DNA of 64,000 bases from an uncultured Acidimicrobiia bacterium (GCA_963790345.1 CAWBOD010000012.1:10118-74117); one strand, 5' to 3'; positions 10,155 to 16,005 are shown, counted from the first letter of the stretch. Made by a program: numbers and translations. The notes: generated by a model not told the origin, from the letters alone.

Positions 10155-13023
10155 ATGTTCGTGGACGTTCGTTTGCTCGGTCCCGTGCAGGTCGTTGATA
10201 GAACAGGCCAGATAATCGAGATCGCGGGCGAGCTGCCGAAGGCGTTGTTGGCTGTCCTCGCCCTCCAGGCGCCGACGCCGGTCAACAGCGATCGCATCGT
10301 TGATGCGCTCTGGGGCGAGGAACCACCCGATTCCCCCGAGGCCTCGTTGCACTCGACGGTCTCCCGGCTGCGCCATGCGCTGGGAAAGGACATCATCAAG
10401 CGGGTCGCCGACAGCTACCTCCTCGAGATCCCGGTGGCCAACTCGGACCTGGCCCGCTTTCGGCGCCACGTCCAGCGGGGCGTTCAGTTCAGGACCCTCG
10501 GCCACCCCGCCAAAGGCGCCGAAGCCTTTCGCCAGGCTCTCGCCCAGTGGCGCGGCATTCCCCTCTCCGACCTCCGCCGTTTCGAATTCGCCGAACAGGC
10601 CGGCCGCCGCCTGGAGGAAGAGCGGCTCGTGGCGGTGGAGGCGTTGATGGATACAGAGCTCCTCGTCGGCGACCACGCCATGGTGCTCGGAGAATTGAGC
10701 GGACTCGTCGAATCCTTCCCGTTGCGAGAGCGCTTGTGGGGGCAGTTGATTCTGGCGCTGTACCGCTCGGGCCGTCAGGCCGAGGCCCTGCGCGCCTACG
10801 CCCGGGTGAAGGAGACGCTGGCCACCGAGCTCGGAGTGGACCCGTCGCCCGAGCTCGCCGCCCTCGAGGAACGCATTCTCCTCCACGATCCGGCCCTCAC
10901 CGAATTCGCCGACCCCACTAGCGCCGATTGGCTCGACAGCCCCGAACTGATCACCTTCGCAAGCGGGGAGACCGTGGTGGAAGAGGGGGGCCCGGCCGAC
11001 GCCGTCTATTGGATCGAAGCCGGCGAAGTGGAGATCTTTCGCACCGATGCCAACGGCTCCGAGGTGCCACTTGCCCGGTTGGGAACCGGCCGCTATTTCG
11101 GCGAGCTGGCCTCGCTGCTCGGCACCGGACGCACGGCCTCGGTGCGAGCCGCCGCGCCGACCACCCTTTCGGTCCACACCGTCGAAAGCTTTCGCCGCCG
11201 CCTAGGCATTGAACGGGTTCGGCCCGAGACCGGCCCGAGTTCCGCCGACGAGGTCCGCCAACTGATCCGACAGGGCCAGTACCTGAAGGCCTATGACCTC
11301 GCCGCCGGCCAGCTCGAGTTGGGCAGCGGCGACCTCGAGCTGCGGTTATCTGGCGGTGCTCGCCCTCGCCCGGTCGGGAGCCACCATCCAGGCCCGCCGT
11401 CGCTACGACTCTTTCGGTCTCGCTTCGGTGGAACGGCGCTTCCATCGCAGCCCGTCTGGCCGAGGACATCGCCGCCCTCGATGCCCGCCTCGATAAGGAC
11501 ATCGCCCTCGCCCGTGACGGCGAGCAGCGCCGTCTATGGGCGTCGCGCTCGGCGACGAGGCTACGGCGCCGCCTTCGACCGCCACCGCTCCCCCTACCTG
11601 GCGGTGAACGCGGCCACGATGTGGCTCGTCGCCGGAGAAGAAGAGCGGGCCACCAGCCTCCGCCCGCCAGGGCCTCGACGTCCTCTCCGAAGCGAAAGCA
11701 GCAAGTTCCGAGGACCGCTACTGGTTGCTGGTCTCTGAAGCCGAAGCCGCCCTGGTGCTCGGTGACCGCCAAAGGGCCGAGGATGCCCTTGCGACGGGCC
11801 GGGCATGGGAGCGAGTCCGCTCTTGCCTCGCGGGCGACCACGCTGCGTCAGCTCAGGCTCGTCTGCGAACTCAAGGGGTTCGATCCTTCGCTGCTGGCGG
11901 CGATCGCCAACCCGACCGTGGTCCATTTCTGCGGTCATCGCATCGGCGCCCCCGGGGAAGGGAGCCGCTTTCCCGCCGAGGAGGAGCCGCGAGTGCAAGC
12001 CGAGTCTGAAGGCGGAGTTCGATCGGTTGGGGGCCGGGATCGGCTATGGCTCGCTCGCCGCCGGGGCCGACATCATGGCCGCCGAGGTCCTCCTCGACCG
12101 GGGAGCCGAACTGCATGTCACCCTTCCCTTCGATCGAGAGGAGTTTGTCCGCACCTCTGTGGCACCGGCAGGTCCCGCCTGGGTACGTCGCTTCGAACGC
12201 TGCCTCGCCTCGGCCACCGCGGTCGTTACCGCAGTCCACGGCGAGTACCTCGACGACCCGACCCTTTTCGACTTCTGCGCACGCATCGCCATGGGCGATG
12301 CCCTGGTCCGGGCTCGACAGCTCGAGGCCGACGTCTGCCAGGTAGCCGTATGGGACGGCGTCGAAACGAGCCAGACGGCCGGCACCTCGGTAGATGTTGC
12401 CCGCTGGAAGGCTGGCGGACACCCCGCCACGATCATTCCGGCCGGTGCCACGGCCGTCGCTGCCAACGGTCCCGCCGCCCCTCCCAAACGGCAGGTCCGG
12501 GCGCTACTTTTCGCCGACTTCGCCGGCTTCTCCCGCCTTTCCGACGCCCAGGTGCTGCTCTTCCAGGAGAAGGTGATGTCCGAGATCGGCCGCACCGTCG
12601 AGAAGTTCGGCGCCCACCTCCTTTCCGGACGCACTTGGGGCGATGGTCTCCATCTGGTCTTCTCCGAGGTTGGGGCGGCGGCCCAGTGTGCTCTCGATCT
12701 GCAGACCTCGATCAGCCAGATCGACTTCGAAGCCGCCGGCCTGCGCGGTTTGCGCGGGCTCCGCCTGGCCGCCCACGCCGCCCCGGTGTTCGAAGGGTGG
12801 GATCCGATCGCCGGGGGCTCGTCTCTTCTTCGGGGCGGGAGTCACGCAGACTGCCCGTATCGAACCCCGCACCCCCGAGGGTGAGGTCTACGTCACCCAT
12901 CCGTTCGCCGCTCTGGCCGCCCTCGCCGGCGACCTCTCGATCGCCTGCCAGTACGTCGGCACTCTTCCCACCGCCAAGGGTTACGGGTCATTGCCTCTCT
13001 ACGCTCTCCATCAGAAGGTGTAG
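10155..13023 (+). pseudogene. Multidomain signalling protein: SARP-type winged helix + BTAD, cNMP-binding (CAP_ED), helical TPR-like region, SLOG/LOG-like Rossmannoid region, class III nucleotide cyclase domain; about 7 frame changes (~11345, 11425, 11545, 11655, 11800, 11990, 12835)
   Basis: - SARP/BTAD: VRLLGPVQVVDRTGQIIEIAG...SDRIVDALWGEEPP...LWGQLILALYRSGRQAEALRAYARVKETLATELGVDPSPEL.
- cNMP-binding: FASGETVVEEGGPADAVYWIEAGEVEIFR...LGTGRYFGELASLLGTGRTASVRA.
- Helical segments: YLAVLALARSGATIQARRRYDSFGL, DRYWLLVSEAEAALVLGDRQRAEDAL.
- SLOG-like: VVHFCGHRIG...GYGSLAAGADIMAAEVLLDRGAELHVTLPF.
- Cyclase: ALLFADFAGFSRLS...RTWGDGLHLVF...GAGVTQTARIE.

These pieces were assembled from ORFs 9993.., 11293.., 11621.., 11725.., 11805.. 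and 12643... Confidence 0.75.

Positions 13024-16005: not shown

What the first reader, a model, noticed from the sequence alone, without database searches (positions are those of the whole stretch)
10155..16005. Two-gene module: SARP/BTAD + cNMP-binding + TPR-like + SLOG-like + cyclase megaprotein, followed 2 nt later by a TIR-TM-beta-propeller protein
**Seen in sequence**
- A ~950-aa gene (once its frames are re-joined) combines a DNA-binding SARP/BTAD module, a CAP-type cyclic-nucleotide-binding domain, a helical repeat region, a Rossmannoid GSLAAGADI...ELHVTLPF region and a class III nucleotide cyclase domain.
- Its TAG (13021-13023) is followed after 2 nt by the ATG of a TIR-domain protein. 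The two are almost certainly co-transcribed.

**Established knowledge**
- TIR domains with the conserved Glu (here in WVDREVAYW) act as NAD-consuming or nucleotide-signal-generating enzymes in bacterial immunity.
- SLOG-type domains and cyclases recur in nucleotide-centred conflict systems.

**Inference**
- One locus would encode a nucleotide second-messenger generator and sensor, a transcriptional output and a TIR effector or receptor. I do not recognise this combination as a named defence or signalling system.

**Caveat seen in sequence**
- The cyclase has both metal Asp positions (FADFAGFS, WGDG) and the Arg. The transition-state Asn of the N-x-x-x-R motif is Thr (VTQTAR), so catalysis may be altered or lost.
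Basis: partly seen in the sequence, partly recalled or inferred. Interest (0 to 1): 0.8.

Follow-up and report, generated by a model that had tools for sequence, protein, structure and literature searches.

The report
Membrane TIR receptor plus SLOG-cyclase regulator
This is a conserved two-gene bacterial signalling module that no searched resource names: a membrane-anchored TIR enzyme with a highly variable outward-facing sensor, next to a cytoplasmic protein that joins a nucleotide-sensor fold to a cyclase and, here, to a transcription factor; this copy has eight single-base insertions that look like sequence errors, not gene death.

Summary
Gene 1 (10155-13023) is split by seven single-base insertions and gene 2 (13026-16005) by one. 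Removing those eight bases gives intact 953-aa and 992-aa proteins that are 84-90% identical to intact orthologues in Acidimicrobiia MAGs.

Gene 1 is SARP (wHTH + BTAD), then a CAP-type cNMP-binding domain, TPR-S, a Rossmannoid domain and a class III cyclase domain. The Rossmannoid model's best structural matches are SLOG proteins (DprA, ShosA, Moco carrier, LOG, TRPM2). Gene 2 is TIR, one transmembrane helix, then beta-propellers, with the catalytic Glu kept.

The pairing is not chance:
- TIR genes make up 23 of 80 ORFs at rank 1-2 from long-form homologues, against 0 of 103 at rank 5 or more.
- The roughly 600-aa core (TPR-S + SLOG-like + cyclase) is widespread (1731 representatives at E ≤ 1e-30). 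It is also TIR-linked in other phyla.
- TIR genes often form tandem arrays with near-identical TIR heads (89-96%) and very different ectodomains (23-34%).

Best reading: a Thoeris-like TIR-to-SLOG relay with a cyclase/cNMP/SARP output. The direction of signalling and the chemistry are inferred. PADLOC and the searchable literature do not name it, so I rate it a new variant of a known kind.

The parts
10060..10077 (+). Conserved upstream element CGTTAGAAGTTCGTAAGT, a possible promoter or operator about 80-100 nt before gene 1
   Evidence: The alignment of upstream regions and a motif search find the same 18-mer, with 0-1 mismatches, 85-102 nt upstream in L001-L006. Its function was not tested.
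10155..13023 (+). Gene 1, 953 aa after repair: SARP, cNMP-binding, TPR-S, SLOG-like and class III cyclase domains. Broken by seven 1-nt insertions at about 11342, 11434, 11556, 11657, 11792, 12005 and 12813.
   Evidence: Intact homologues of 945-980 aa are 84-89% identical in the closest cases.
10242..10880 (+). SARP DNA-binding module: winged helix (Trans_reg_C, 10242-10400) and BTAD (10446-10880)
   Evidence: Pfam BTAD 2e-44 and Trans_reg_C 1e-6. NCBIfam hits AfsR and BagI/FevR SARP models over residues 5-265, far below their full-length cut-offs.
10953..11198 (+). CAP-type cyclic-nucleotide-binding domain with an intact phosphate-binding cassette (FGELA...RTA)
   Evidence: Pfam cNMP_binding 1e-18. 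F313, G314, E315 and R324 are invariant in 86 homologues.
11292..11800 (+). Helical TPR-S region, which also matches the TPR part of MAP3K_TRAF_bd (ASK1-type). Five of the frame breaks lie inside it; a sixth, at about 12005, falls in the SLOG-like domain.
   Evidence: Pfam TPR-S 3.8e-6, 27.9 bits against a cut-off of 27.6, and MAP3K_TRAF_bd 0.005 at profile positions 181-322, on the repaired protein. The homologues give the same hits.
11876..12455 (+). Rossmannoid SLOG-like domain with the motifs H-[FY]-x-G-H, G-S-L-A-A-G-A-D-I...E and L-P-F
   Evidence: The AF2 model has pLDDT 91.6. Foldseek against PDB gives DprA 5e-5, ShosA 2e-4, Moco carrier protein 2e-3, LOG 6e-3, TM1055 and TRPM2. There is no sequence hit in Pfam or PDB. 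The motifs are near-invariant in 145 distant representatives.
12486..13020 (+). Class III nucleotide cyclase homology domain. Both metal Asp residues and both Arg residues are kept. The transition-state Asn is Thr, and the base-specifying Lys and Asp are Arg and Ala.
   Evidence: The PDB profile search finds 3mr7 at 7e-7 and 3et6 at 3e-6, with the residue alignment shown. Foldseek's top 50 hits are all cyclases, with target-normalised TM up to 0.8. Conservation is given.
13026..16005 (+). Gene 2, 992 aa after repair: TIR, one transmembrane helix, then a beta-propeller region. Broken by one 1-nt insertion at about 13423. Starts 2 nt after the stop of gene 1.
   Evidence: An intact 989-aa orthologue sits in the same position in L001-L003.
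13074..13638 (+). Cytoplasmic TIR head: TIR core at 13074-13446 with the catalytic Glu in S-T-W-V-D-R-E, followed by a conserved extension of about 65 aa
   Evidence: Pfam TIR_2 2e-10 and ThsB_TIR 1e-6. PADLOC ThsB 2e-4, scored on the L001 orthologue of gene 2. The Glu is conserved in all 51 neighbouring TIR proteins whose sequence covers the motif. The head is 62-69% identical across Acidimicrobiia.
13645..13701 (+). Single transmembrane helix (WGAGIALAVLAVAAITGAVIAI). Arg-rich on the N side and acidic on the C side, so the TIR is predicted to face inward and the propellers outward.
   Evidence: The hydropathy scan peaks at 2.59 over residues 207-225. Nearly all full-length TIR neighbours in 35 loci show the same single helix after the TIR. 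The topology is inferred from the positive-inside rule.
13927..16002 (+). Variable extracytoplasmic beta-propeller (WD40/PD40-like) region, the putative ligand sensor
   Evidence: Pfam gives several WD40 and beta-propeller families. It is only 25-37% identical between loci whose TIR heads are 62-69% identical. Between tandem paralogues it is 23-34% identical while their heads are 89-96% identical.

Best explanation
The two genes form one signalling module built on the TIR-to-SLOG principle known from Thoeris.

**Gene 2: the receptor**
- Gene 2 encodes a type II membrane receptor. Its variable beta-propeller ectodomain faces outward and would bind an external or envelope-associated ligand.
- Ligand-driven clustering would assemble the cytoplasmic TIR heads, which keep the catalytic Glu, into an active NAD-cleaving enzyme. 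That enzyme would release an NAD-derived small molecule.

**Gene 2 to gene 1: the relay**
- The SLOG-like Rossmannoid domain of gene 1 would bind that molecule.
- The adjacent TPR-S helical region may act as a scaffold or dock the TIR head.

**Gene 1: the output**
- Ligand binding would switch on the fused class III cyclase domain, which would make a cyclic nucleotide of non-canonical or unknown base specificity.
- In the Acidimicrobiia long form present in this window, the fused CAP-type cNMP-binding domain would read the cyclic nucleotide in cis. That domain would gate the N-terminal SARP winged-helix/BTAD module.
- The output is therefore transcriptional activation, not only cell suicide.

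**This copy**
- The eight frame breaks in the window copy are most likely sequencing or assembly errors.

**Shown and inferred**
- Shown: domain identities, motif conservation, operon-like adjacency, enrichment of the TIR partner, the tandem TIR arrays, and purifying selection on the repaired frames.
- Inferred: the direction of signalling, ligand identities, cyclase activity and product, and the biological role. I favour surveillance of phage or non-self, because the sensors are diversifying.
For: **Adjacency**
- In L001-L003 an intact 950-aa gene is followed 2 nt later by an intact 989-aa TIR-WD40 gene.
- Across the species-representative genome collection, TIR genes make up 23 of 80 ORFs at rank 1-2 from long-form homologues, against 0 of 103 at rank 5 or more (Fisher p = 7e-10).
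- For the short form in other phyla the figures are 13 of 173 against 4 of 294 (p = 0.001).
- TIR_2 is the commonest Pfam family among 81 immediate neighbours of short forms.

**Thoeris-like gene arithmetic**
- One SLOG-bearing gene sits beside one to four TIR genes in L005, L006, L016, L019, L021 and L022.

**Sensor signature**
- Within-locus paralogues have TIR heads 89-96% identical but ectodomains only 23-34% identical.
- The architecture TIR, single transmembrane helix, then repeats recurs across phyla.

**TIR competence**
- The catalytic Glu is conserved in all 51 neighbouring TIR proteins whose sequence covers the motif.

**SLOG fold**
- The AF2 model has pLDDT 91.6.
- SLOG-superfamily proteins head the Foldseek list: DprA, ShosA, Moco carrier, LOG and TRPM2.
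- The pocket-type motifs H-x-x-G-H and G-S-L-A-x-G-x-D...E are near-invariant in 145 representatives clustered at 50% identity.
- SLOG domains acting as sensors of TIR-made cADPR variants is established background (PMC9503650; PMC7272460).

**Cyclase**
- Class III membership is clear.
- Both metal Asp residues are kept in 144 of 145 representatives, and both Arg residues in 144-145 of 145.
- The two-domain SLOG + cyclase model has pTM 0.89, which suggests a rigid unit.

**cNMP reader**
- F-G-E and R-T-A of the phosphate-binding cassette are invariant.

**Frames**
- All eight frame lesions are +1 insertions, with no stop codon after repair.
- Window-specific changes are 7 non-synonymous to 55 synonymous in gene 1 and 11 to 27 in gene 2.
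Against: - No experiment or ligand evidence exists, so the direction TIR to SLOG rests on analogy.
- The best structural matches are DprA and ShosA, which bind DNA, and the TM-scores are only modest (0.4-0.54). ThsA's SLOG domain is not in the top 50.
- The cyclase lacks the canonical transition-state Asn: it is Thr or Ser in 124 of 145 representatives and Asn in 13. It also lacks the purine-specifying Lys/Asp pair, so it may not make a cNMP.
- One divergent long form (P0098) has lost the first metal Asp (sequence).
- Some SARP fusions lack the cNMP-binding domain, for example P0104, so cNMP may not be the obligatory link to SARP.
- Five or six informative long-form loci (L008, L009, L012, L013, L023 and perhaps L018) have no TIR within the flank held (10 kb at most, less in the shorter contigs) and sit among housekeeping genes. 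About two-thirds of short-form loci likewise show no TIR nearby.
- The window context is metabolic, not a defence island.
- TPR-S is labelled a 'sensor' in Pfam, which would fit the opposite direction of signalling.
Confidence: 0.45

Rival explanations
1. Reverse wiring, as in Pycsar. The TPR-S/SLOG/cyclase protein is the sensor and signal generator, and the TIR membrane proteins are the effectors, depleting NAD or damaging the membrane once activated.
For: - Pfam labels the helical region TPR-S, a 'sensor'.
- Cyclase, cNMP-binding domain and TIR are the three ingredients of Pycsar.
- The cNMP-binding domain weakly matches the PADLOC PycTIR and CBASS-effector models.
- TIR domains are common NADase effectors (PMC9503650).
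Against: - The TIR proteins have no cNMP-binding domain or any other recognisable small-molecule receptor domain.
- They carry their own large, fast-diverging ectodomains and occur as several paralogues per single cyclase gene, which is the pattern of sensors and not of effectors.
- The TPR-S region is highly conserved within the 86 long-form homologues aligned (mean column identity 62% over the whole protein), which is not what an invader-binding surface would show.
- The cNMP-binding domain lies in the same polypeptide as the cyclase and next to a DNA-binding domain.
Confidence: 0.15
2. The SLOG-like and cyclase domains are not a relay. Either they process or quench the TIR product, setting a threshold in the manner of a LOG-like N-glycosidase, or they bind nucleic acid as DprA does. 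Under this reading the cyclase domain is a non-catalytic dimerisation or nucleotide-binding module.
For: - The top fold matches are DprA and ShosA, followed by the LOG enzymes.
- The domain has many invariant polar residues, including His and Asp, as an enzyme would.
- The cyclase lacks the canonical Asn and the base-specifying residues.
- Catalytically inactive cyclase domains are described in conflict systems (PMC7159879).
Against: - Both metal-binding Asp residues and both Arg residues of the cyclase are kept in 144-145 of 145 distant representatives. Degenerate regulatory cyclase domains do not usually retain these.
- The short form has no other candidate output domain.
- The fused cNMP-binding domain in the long form is most simply explained by a cNMP being made.
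Confidence: 0.2
3. In this particular genome the module is dead. The eight frameshifts are real and both genes are pseudogenes.
For: - Eight frame breaks lie within 5.9 kb, six of them clustered in 660 nt.
- None lies in a long homopolymer, apart from a G5 run at 12813.
- Neighbouring genes are also frame-broken, as in a decaying genome.
Against: - All eight lesions are +1 insertions. There are no deletions and no nonsense codons, and all other indels are in-frame.
- Window-specific substitutions are overwhelmingly synonymous (7 non-synonymous to 55 synonymous, and 11 to 27). That matches or betters the intact orthologues.
- Eight independent inactivating indels without a matching excess of non-synonymous change is very unlikely.
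- The frame breaks checked in neighbouring genes mostly run in the same direction: two of three are +1, and the third is a -1 or +2 shift. That is typical of an insertion-prone read technology.
Confidence: 0.12
4. The module is an ordinary environmental or envelope signal-transduction pathway, sensing something like nutrients, cell-wall state or cell-cell contact to control SARP-dependent genes. It has no role in immunity or conflict.
For: - The output is a SARP activator.
- The window and several other loci lie among metabolic and housekeeping genes.
- The long form behaves like a vertically inherited gene across Acidimicrobiia, at 45-90% identity.
Against: - Closely related copies (84-90% nt identity) lie in unrelated flanks in every contig compared.
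- L001-L003 have an integrase fragment, with a DUF222 gene and a DNA methyltransferase also nearby in L001.
- The tandem receptor arrays, with homogenised signalling heads and ectodomains only 23-34% identical, are typical of recognition systems under diversifying pressure.
Confidence: 0.25

Closest known systems
Thoeris (ThsB TIR + ThsA SIR2-SLOG, type I)
   Same: - A TIR protein with a conserved catalytic Glu sits next to a protein carrying a SLOG-superfamily domain.
- One SLOG gene is accompanied by one to several TIR genes.
- The TIR matches the ThsB models weakly (Pfam ThsB_TIR 1e-6; PADLOC ThsB 2e-4).
   Different: - There is no SIR2, Macro or TM effector. The SLOG-like domain is DprA/LOG-like by fold, and ThsA is not among the top 50 fold matches.
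- It is fused to TPR-S and a class III cyclase, and here also to a cNMP-binding domain and SARP.
- The TIR proteins are membrane-anchored with large ectodomains, whereas ThsB is cytosolic (from my own knowledge).
Pycsar (PycC cyclase + cNMP-binding effector with TIR or TM)
   Same: Both combine a class III-type cyclase, a cNMP-binding domain and a TIR domain in one locus. The cNMP-binding domain weakly matches PycTIR (3.5e-6).
   Different: - The cNMP-binding domain is fused to the cyclase and a transcription factor, not to the TIR.
- The cyclase domain does not match the PycC model. The only PycC hit falls on the cNMP-binding region.
- The TIR proteins lack any cNMP receptor.
Animal SARM1/TIR-1 upstream of ASK1/NSY-1, and bacterial DUF4071 (MAP3K_TRAF_bd) proteins
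   Same: - The helical region matches the TPR part of Pfam MAP3K_TRAF_bd, the ASK1 regulatory region.
- In both cases a TIR protein is the genetic or physical partner of a protein that combines such a TPR with a Rossmannoid domain and an output enzyme.
- A bacterial-conflict origin of ASK signalosome components is asserted in PMC8195603, citing Burroughs et al. 2015. I could not read that 2015 paper here.
   Different: - The domain order is reversed: TPR then Rossmannoid here, Rossmannoid then TPR in ASK1 (from my own knowledge).
- The output is a cyclase, with or without SARP, and not a kinase.
- The match scores 16-33 bits; only the short-form homologue P0108 (33.3 bits) exceeds the 24.1-bit cut-off, and the window protein (16.4) does not.
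Toll-like receptors
   Same: Both have a repeat-built ectodomain, one transmembrane helix and a cytoplasmic TIR, and both families have diversified ectodomains.
   Different: - The orientation is opposite, with an N-terminal TIR (type II).
- The ectodomain is made of beta-propellers and not LRRs.
- The TIR keeps the enzyme-type Glu, and the downstream partner is a SLOG/cyclase protein and not an adaptor TIR.
- This is analogy only, not homology of the whole architecture.
SARP regulators (AfsR, EmbR) and multidomain mycobacterial class III cyclases (for example Rv0386-type cyclase-ATPase-TPR-HTH)
   Same: - The N-terminus is a winged helix plus BTAD, matching the AfsR model at 4.6e-42 over residues 5-265.
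- Both combine a class III cyclase, TPR-like repeats and a DNA-binding domain in one actinobacterial protein.
   Different: - There is no STAND/AAA ATPase.
- A SLOG-like domain and a cNMP-binding domain are present.
- The cyclase is at the C-terminus, with non-canonical Thr/Ser in place of Asn.
- It is operonic with a TIR receptor.

Membership tests
TIR domain enzymes (NADase / signal-generating) | TIR fold and sequence profile | tested here: met
   Pfam TIR_2 scores 2e-10 and 41.6 bits against a cut-off of 28.
TIR domain enzymes (NADase / signal-generating) | Conserved catalytic Glu in the S-x-W-[CV]-x-x-E motif | tested here: met
   The window has STWVDREVAYW. The Glu is present in all 51 neighbouring TIR proteins whose sequence covers the motif.
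TIR domain enzymes (NADase / signal-generating) | NAD+ cleavage or cyclisation activity | not testable with these tools
   This needs an enzyme assay.
SLOG superfamily | Three-layer alpha/beta Rossmannoid fold most similar to DprA, LOG, the Moco carrier protein and TRPM MHR1/2 | tested here: met
   The AF2 model has pLDDT 91.6. SLOG proteins (DprA, ShosA, Moco carrier, LOG, TM1055, TRPM2) head the Foldseek PDB list and make up most of its top 50, from E = 5e-5 upward, with TM-scores of only 0.4-0.54.
SLOG superfamily | Sequence-profile membership in a described SLOG family (Pfam LOG, DprA, YpsA, STALD, LD_cluster) | tested here: not met
   No Pfam hit appears even at E = 10 in 25 members, and a profile search of PDB finds nothing. 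The G-S-L-A-x-G-x-D motif resembles DprA's S-G-L-A-x-G-I-D, but that comparison is from memory only.
SLOG superfamily | Binding of a nucleotide-derived ligand | not testable with these tools
   The near-invariant motifs H-x-x-G-H and G-S-L-A-x-G-x-D...E are compatible with a binding pocket, but no binding test was possible.
Class III nucleotide cyclases | Cyclase homology domain fold and profile | tested here: met
   The PDB profile search finds 3mr7 at 6.6e-7 and 3et6 at 2.7e-6. Foldseek's top 50 hits are all class III cyclases, with E = 6e-11 and target-normalised TM of 0.75-0.80. Pfam Guanylate_cyc reaches its threshold in some homologues only.
Class III nucleotide cyclases | Two metal-binding Asp residues | tested here: met
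   FADFAGFS and WGDG are present. Each Asp is kept in 144 of 145 representatives.
Class III nucleotide cyclases | Transition-state Asn and Arg (the N-x-x-x-R motif) | tested here: not met
   The Arg is kept in 144 of 145, but the Asn position is Thr in the window. Across the family it is Thr in 78, Ser in 46 and Asn in 13 of 145.
Class III nucleotide cyclases | Purine-specifying Lys/Asp (adenylate) or Glu/Cys (guanylate) pair | tested here: not met
   The position four residues before the second Asp is Arg in the window and Asn in 126 of 145 representatives. The Asp of G-D-x-V-N is Ala or variable.
Thoeris | A TIR (ThsB) gene or genes adjacent to an effector gene that carries a signal-binding domain (SLOG in type I) | tested here: met
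   Adjacency and enrichment are shown. One to four TIR genes accompany each SLOG gene.
Thoeris | ThsA-type effector (SIR2-SLOG, or TM-Macro in type II) | tested here: not met
   Neither Pfam nor PADLOC finds a SIR2, Macro or ThsA match.
Thoeris | Anti-phage protection through a TIR-made ADPR-derived signal | not testable with these tools
   This needs phage challenge and metabolite analysis.
Pycsar | PycC-type cyclase plus an effector in which a cNMP-binding domain is fused to TIR or TM | tested here: not met
   The cyclase domain does not hit the PycC model, and the only hit falls on the cNMP-binding region. The TIR protein has no cNMP-binding domain.
SARP transcriptional activators | OmpR-type winged helix followed by BTAD | tested here: met
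   Trans_reg_C scores 1.3e-6 and BTAD 2e-44. The AfsR model matches at 4.6e-42 over residues 5-265.
CAP/CRP-type cNMP-binding domains | Profile match with an intact phosphate-binding cassette (G-E ... R-[ST]-A) | tested here: met
   cNMP_binding scores 1.1e-18. The window has FGELASLLGTGRTA, and G314, E315 and R324 are invariant.
TPR-S (Pfam PF20308) | Profile match at the gathering threshold | tested here: met
   The repaired window protein scores 27.9 bits against a cut-off of 27.6. Homologues reach 51.8 bits. The window score is marginal, and the match is undetectable in the unrepaired fragments.

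The most novel reading that the evidence does not exclude
This would be a prokaryotic transmembrane TIR receptor pathway with a non-suicidal, transcriptional output.
- Arrays of type II TIR receptors with hypervariable extracellular beta-propellers would detect external non-self, such as phage particles, competitors or kin markers.
- They would convert that signal into an NAD-derived messenger, which a previously unclassified SLOG clade reads.
- That would be relayed into a second, cyclase-made cyclic nucleotide of unusual specificity, which drives a SARP activator.
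- The TPR + Rossmannoid + output-enzyme partner of a TIR protein would then be the bacterial counterpart of the animal SARM1/TIR-1 to ASK1 axis.
Probability: 0.25. Interest if true: 0.9.

Novelty: new variant of a known kind. Interest (0 to 1): 0.66.

Why it matters
- Known bacterial TIR pathways such as Thoeris use cytosolic TIR sensors and end in NAD depletion, membrane damage or proteolysis (from my own knowledge). This module would add three things:
  - a membrane-receptor form of TIR sensing with an outward-facing, rapidly diversifying ligand domain;
  - a two-messenger cascade, from an NAD-derived signal to a cyclic nucleotide;
  - a direct link to gene regulation through a SARP.
- The roughly 600-aa TPR-S + SLOG-like + cyclase core is a large family, with at least 1731 representatives at 50% clustering. 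The few public names looked up for it read only 'hypothetical protein' (3 of 15 members checked carried a name). A defined partner and a testable ligand hypothesis would therefore open up many genomes.
- The cyclase's near-invariant Thr/Ser-for-Asn active site suggests an unexplored specificity or chemistry.
- The weak match of the TPR region to ASK1's regulatory region gives a concrete bacterial system for testing the proposed prokaryotic origin of the TIR-ASK axis.
- For the scan itself, the result shows that heavy frame breakage in a window need not mean gene death.

Tried and rejected
- **Pfam on unrepaired fragments.** Nothing was found for the seven fragments covering the C-terminal part of gene 1 (about 11325 to the stop), so the frames had to be repaired first.
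- **GC3 frame plot and a 7-state frame HMM.** I used these to count frameshifts across the whole window. Both were too noisy and mixed true gene junctions with frame breaks, so I give no window-wide rate.
- **Fold search with the two-domain model.** It returned only cyclases and hid the Rossmannoid domain. I re-modelled that domain alone.
- **Sequence-level identification of the Rossmannoid domain.** Pfam at E = 10 and a PDB profile search both found nothing.
- **PADLOC and NCBIfam.** No system-level or family-level name came up.
- **Flanking repeats, att-like sites and tRNA targets around the module.** None was found, so I claim no mechanism of mobility.
- **Promoter and terminator scan.** Nothing was informative.
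- **Alternative conserved partner in long-form loci without TIR.** Only housekeeping genes were present.
- **Literature.** No searchable paper describes a TIR + TPR-S/SLOG/cyclase pair. The two most relevant papers, Burroughs et al. 2015 (NAR) and Burroughs & Aravind 2020 (J Bacteriol), are not held. Prior description there cannot be excluded.
- **L076 '1299-aa fusion'.** I rejected this as a read-through artefact of my own ORF caller.

Full report
**1. What is in the sequence**

Three-frame translation of 10100-16100 shows one long coding track on the + strand that keeps changing frame. It runs 0>1>2>0>1>2>0>1 between 10155 and 13023, and 0>1 near 13420.

A rough join of the pieces found intact full-length homologues of 945-980 aa. 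The closest are 84-89% identical, and almost all come from Acidimicrobiia MAGs.

I aligned the window DNA to four loci with intact genes (L001, L004, L005, L006). Each alignment finds the same eight single-base insertions in the window, at about 11342, 11434, 11556, 11657, 11792, 12005, 12813 and 13423. Every other indel keeps the frame.

Deleting the eight bases yields 953-aa and 992-aa ORFs without internal stops. TAG at 13021-13023 is followed after 2 nt by ATG at 13026. L001-L003 have the same junction.

**2. Are the genes dead here?**

I counted codon changes unique to each lineage where the other four sequences agree.
- The window has 7 non-synonymous and 55 synonymous changes in gene 1.
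- It has 11 non-synonymous and 27 synonymous changes in gene 2.
- The intact L001 has 21 and 44 in gene 1.

The repaired frame has therefore been under purifying selection along essentially the whole window branch.

Eight lesions that are all +1 insertions, with no nonsense codon and no excess of amino-acid change, do not look like decay. They look like insertion-type sequence error.

Neighbouring genes are also split by frame shifts: a histidine kinase, a molybdopterin oxidoreductase and probably a LipJ-like hydrolase-cyclase. I could not obtain a reliable window-wide rate. Real pseudogenisation keeps a probability of about 0.12.

**3. Domain anatomy of gene 1**

*N-terminal half.* Pfam on the repaired protein and on homologues gives:
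- Trans_reg_C and BTAD, which together make a SARP;
- a CAP-type cNMP-binding domain, whose phosphate-binding cassette is invariant;
- TPR-S, just above its threshold;
- a weak match to the TPR part of MAP3K_TRAF_bd.

*C-terminal half.* These 400 residues have no Pfam annotation in most members.
- An AF2 model of residues 548-950 of the orthologue P0003 is confident (pLDDT 88.7, pTM 0.89).
- Its C-terminal half is a class III cyclase domain. The PDB profile search finds 3mr7 at 7e-7 and 3et6 at 3e-6, and Foldseek's top 50 hits are all cyclases.
- The preceding Rossmannoid domain, modelled alone (pLDDT 91.6), has DprA, ShosA, the Moco carrier protein, LOG enzymes, TM1055 and TRPM2 as its leading matches. 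These are SLOG-superfamily proteins and make up most of the top 50, alongside scattered lower-probability matches to unrelated alpha/beta folds.
- The E-values (5e-5 to 1e-2) and TM-scores (0.4-0.54) are modest, and no sequence profile links it to a described SLOG family.
- I therefore call it SLOG-like at the level of fold and superfamily, probably an undescribed clade.

**4. Active-site bookkeeping**

I examined 145 representatives from a library clustered at 50% identity.
- The Rossmannoid motifs H-[FY]-x-G-H, G-[SA]-L-A-x-G-x-D-I...A-E and L-P-F are near-invariant.
- In the cyclase domain, both metal Asp residues are kept (144 of 145 each).
- The Arg of R-x-G-x-H-x-G-P is kept in 145 of 145, and the final Arg in 144 of 145.
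- The transition-state Asn is Thr in 78, Ser in 46 and Asn in 13.
- The purine-specifying Lys and Asp positions are Asn (Arg in the window) and variable.

This is not the pattern of a degenerate domain. It suggests a working active site with altered specificity or chemistry. Activity remains untested.

**5. Gene 2**

Pfam finds TIR_2 (2e-10), ThsB_TIR (1e-6) and WD40-type propellers.

A single strong hydrophobic helix follows the TIR head at residues 207-225. It is Arg-rich before and acidic after, which predicts the TIR inside the cell and the propellers outside (the topology is inferred). The catalytic Glu of S-x-W-V-x-x-E is present in all 51 neighbouring TIR proteins whose sequence covers the motif.

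**6. Is the pairing real?**

A scan of one genome per species returned 80 loci.
- 28 carry the long form. All but two are labelled Acidimicrobiia or Actinomycetes, and those two are probably mis-binned.
- 52 carry a short form, of about 600 aa (TPR-S + SLOG-like + cyclase). These come from Alphaproteobacteria, Gammaproteobacteria, Solirubrobacterales, Mycobacterium MAGs, Binataceae, Eremiobacterota and others.

*Enrichment.* An HMM built here from the TIR heads finds TIR genes within the flank held (10 kb at most) in 35 of 83 loci.
- At rank 1-2 from the focal gene, TIR ORFs are 23 of 80 in long-form loci, against 0 of 103 at rank 5 or more (p = 7e-10).
- In short-form loci they are 13 of 173 against 4 of 294 (p = 0.001).
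- TIR_2 is the commonest Pfam family among 81 immediate neighbours of short forms, followed by Sel1 and WD40 repeats.
- Nearly all full-length TIR neighbours share the plan TIR, one transmembrane helix, then repeats.

*Exceptions.* Five or six long-form loci have no TIR nearby and lie among housekeeping genes. About two-thirds of short-form loci also show no TIR within the flank held.

**7. Arrays and diversification**

Several loci carry two to four tandem TIR genes beside one core gene: L005, L006, L016, L019, L021 and L022.
- Within such arrays the TIR heads are 89-96% identical while the ectodomains are only 23-34% identical.
- Between loci the median is 69% for heads and 29% for ectodomains.

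A homogenised signalling head with a strongly diverged sensor is what is seen in recognition and immune receptor families. One SLOG gene plus several TIR genes is also the gene arithmetic of Thoeris.

**8. Genomic context**

- Only 10116-16010 of the window aligns to the related loci.
- The flanks are unrelated in the window and in each of L001, L004, L005, L006 and L007, even though the module is 84-90% identical in nucleotide sequence.
- L001-L003 have an integrase fragment just downstream of the module, and L001 also carries a DUF222 gene and a DNA methyltransferase nearby.
- The window flanks are metabolic or housekeeping genes: a DNA ligase, a LipJ-like cyclase, a histidine kinase, an SRPBCC protein, a Mo-oxidoreductase and ABC transport genes.
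- I found no repeats or tRNA target at the boundaries.

The module therefore looks mobile or recombinogenic, but I can name no mechanism.

**9. Mechanism**

The best-supported reading is a relay:
1. A variable ectodomain receptor binds its ligand.
2. TIR heads cluster and make an NAD-derived signal.
3. The SLOG-like domain binds that signal.
4. The cyclase domain is activated and makes a cNMP.
5. The cNMP-binding domain reads it in cis.
6. The SARP module activates transcription.

Steps 1 to 3 rest on analogy with Thoeris and on the known sensor role of SLOG domains (PMC7272460; PMC9503650). Steps 4 to 6 rest on the domain fusion itself, in the manner of a Rosetta stone.

The main rivals are:
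- a reversed, Pycsar-like wiring;
- a processing or non-catalytic role for the SLOG-like and cyclase domains;
- a non-immune envelope or environmental signalling role.

The DprA and ShosA top hits, the missing Asn, SARP fusions without a cNMP-binding domain (P0104) and the TIR-less loci all keep these rivals alive.

**10. Comparison and novelty**

The module works like Thoeris in pairing TIR with SLOG. It fails the ThsA effector criterion, so it is not a Thoeris member as currently defined. It shares ingredients with Pycsar, but they are wired differently.

Its TPR region weakly matches ASK1's regulatory region. That echoes the animal TIR-1/SARM1 to ASK1 axis, whose bacterial origin has been proposed (PMC8195603, citing work I could not read).

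PADLOC 2.0 and NCBIfam do not name it. The three members that carry a public name, out of 15 checked, are all called 'hypothetical protein'. The searchable literature has no description.

I rate it a new variant of a known kind, with the caveat that two key comparative-genomics papers were not available to check.

Noticed in passing
window 6844-8224 (+): An alpha/beta-hydrolase ORF (6844-7611, frame 1) runs into a canonical class III cyclase ORF (7571-8224, frame 2; Pfam Guanylate_cyc 4e-20). It looks like one LipJ-type hydrolase-cyclase gene split by another +1 frame shift. It is a second cyclase, 2 kb upstream of the module.
   Followed up: partly
window 8312-9494 (+) and 16732-19043 (+): A histidine kinase has its HATPase_c domain cut at 49 of 111 positions and continuing in the next frame. 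A molybdopterin oxidoreductase has its Molybdopterin domain split into profile positions 1-116 and 168-352. Both are broken by frame shifts, which fits a window-wide indel problem and not decay specific to the module.
   Followed up: partly
window 4120-4214 (-): ARAGORN calls a 95-nt tRNA-Val(gac), which is unusually long. Rfam's tRNA model does not reach its gathering score there, although it confirms the other two tRNAs (25511-25587 and 52064-52139). The call is either a false positive or a tRNA damaged by insertions.
   Followed up: partly
L016 12988-22832; L019 2070-7774; L021 14899-21110; L022 1811-10055: Tandem arrays of two to four TIR-TM-propeller genes have TIR heads 89-96% identical and ectodomains 23-34% identical. 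This suggests gene conversion of the head or cassette-like exchange of sensors.
   Followed up: partly
L005 16016-16426: A 136-aa 5' fragment of gene 1, with its upstream region, lies between two TIR paralogues whose heads are 100% identical. It is a remnant of a tandem duplication of the whole module followed by an internal deletion.
   Followed up: no
window 10060-10077; L001-L006, 85-102 nt upstream of gene 1: A conserved 18-nt element, CGTTAGAGGTTGGTAAGC, is present (the window copy has 3 mismatches). Weaker versions lie at a similar distance in L010, L011 and L016. It may be a promoter or a SARP operator.
   Followed up: partly
window 16010-16730: The roughly 700 nt just after the module has lower GC (0.59 against 0.64-0.68), no convincing ORF and no similarity to the flanks of related loci. 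In L001-L003 the equivalent position holds a phage-integrase fragment.
   Followed up: partly
L001 2222-4981: The closest relative's contig carries a second cyclase-containing regulator 5 kb upstream of the module. It is 919 aa, with Guanylate_cyc, a STAND/NB-ARC-like ATPase and an HTH. The window has no counterpart.
   Followed up: no
L009 (labelled Kiloniellales) and L020 (labelled 'bacterium'): Long-form homologues that are otherwise confined to Acidimicrobiia appear in MAGs with other labels. Mis-binned contigs are the likely cause.
   Followed up: no
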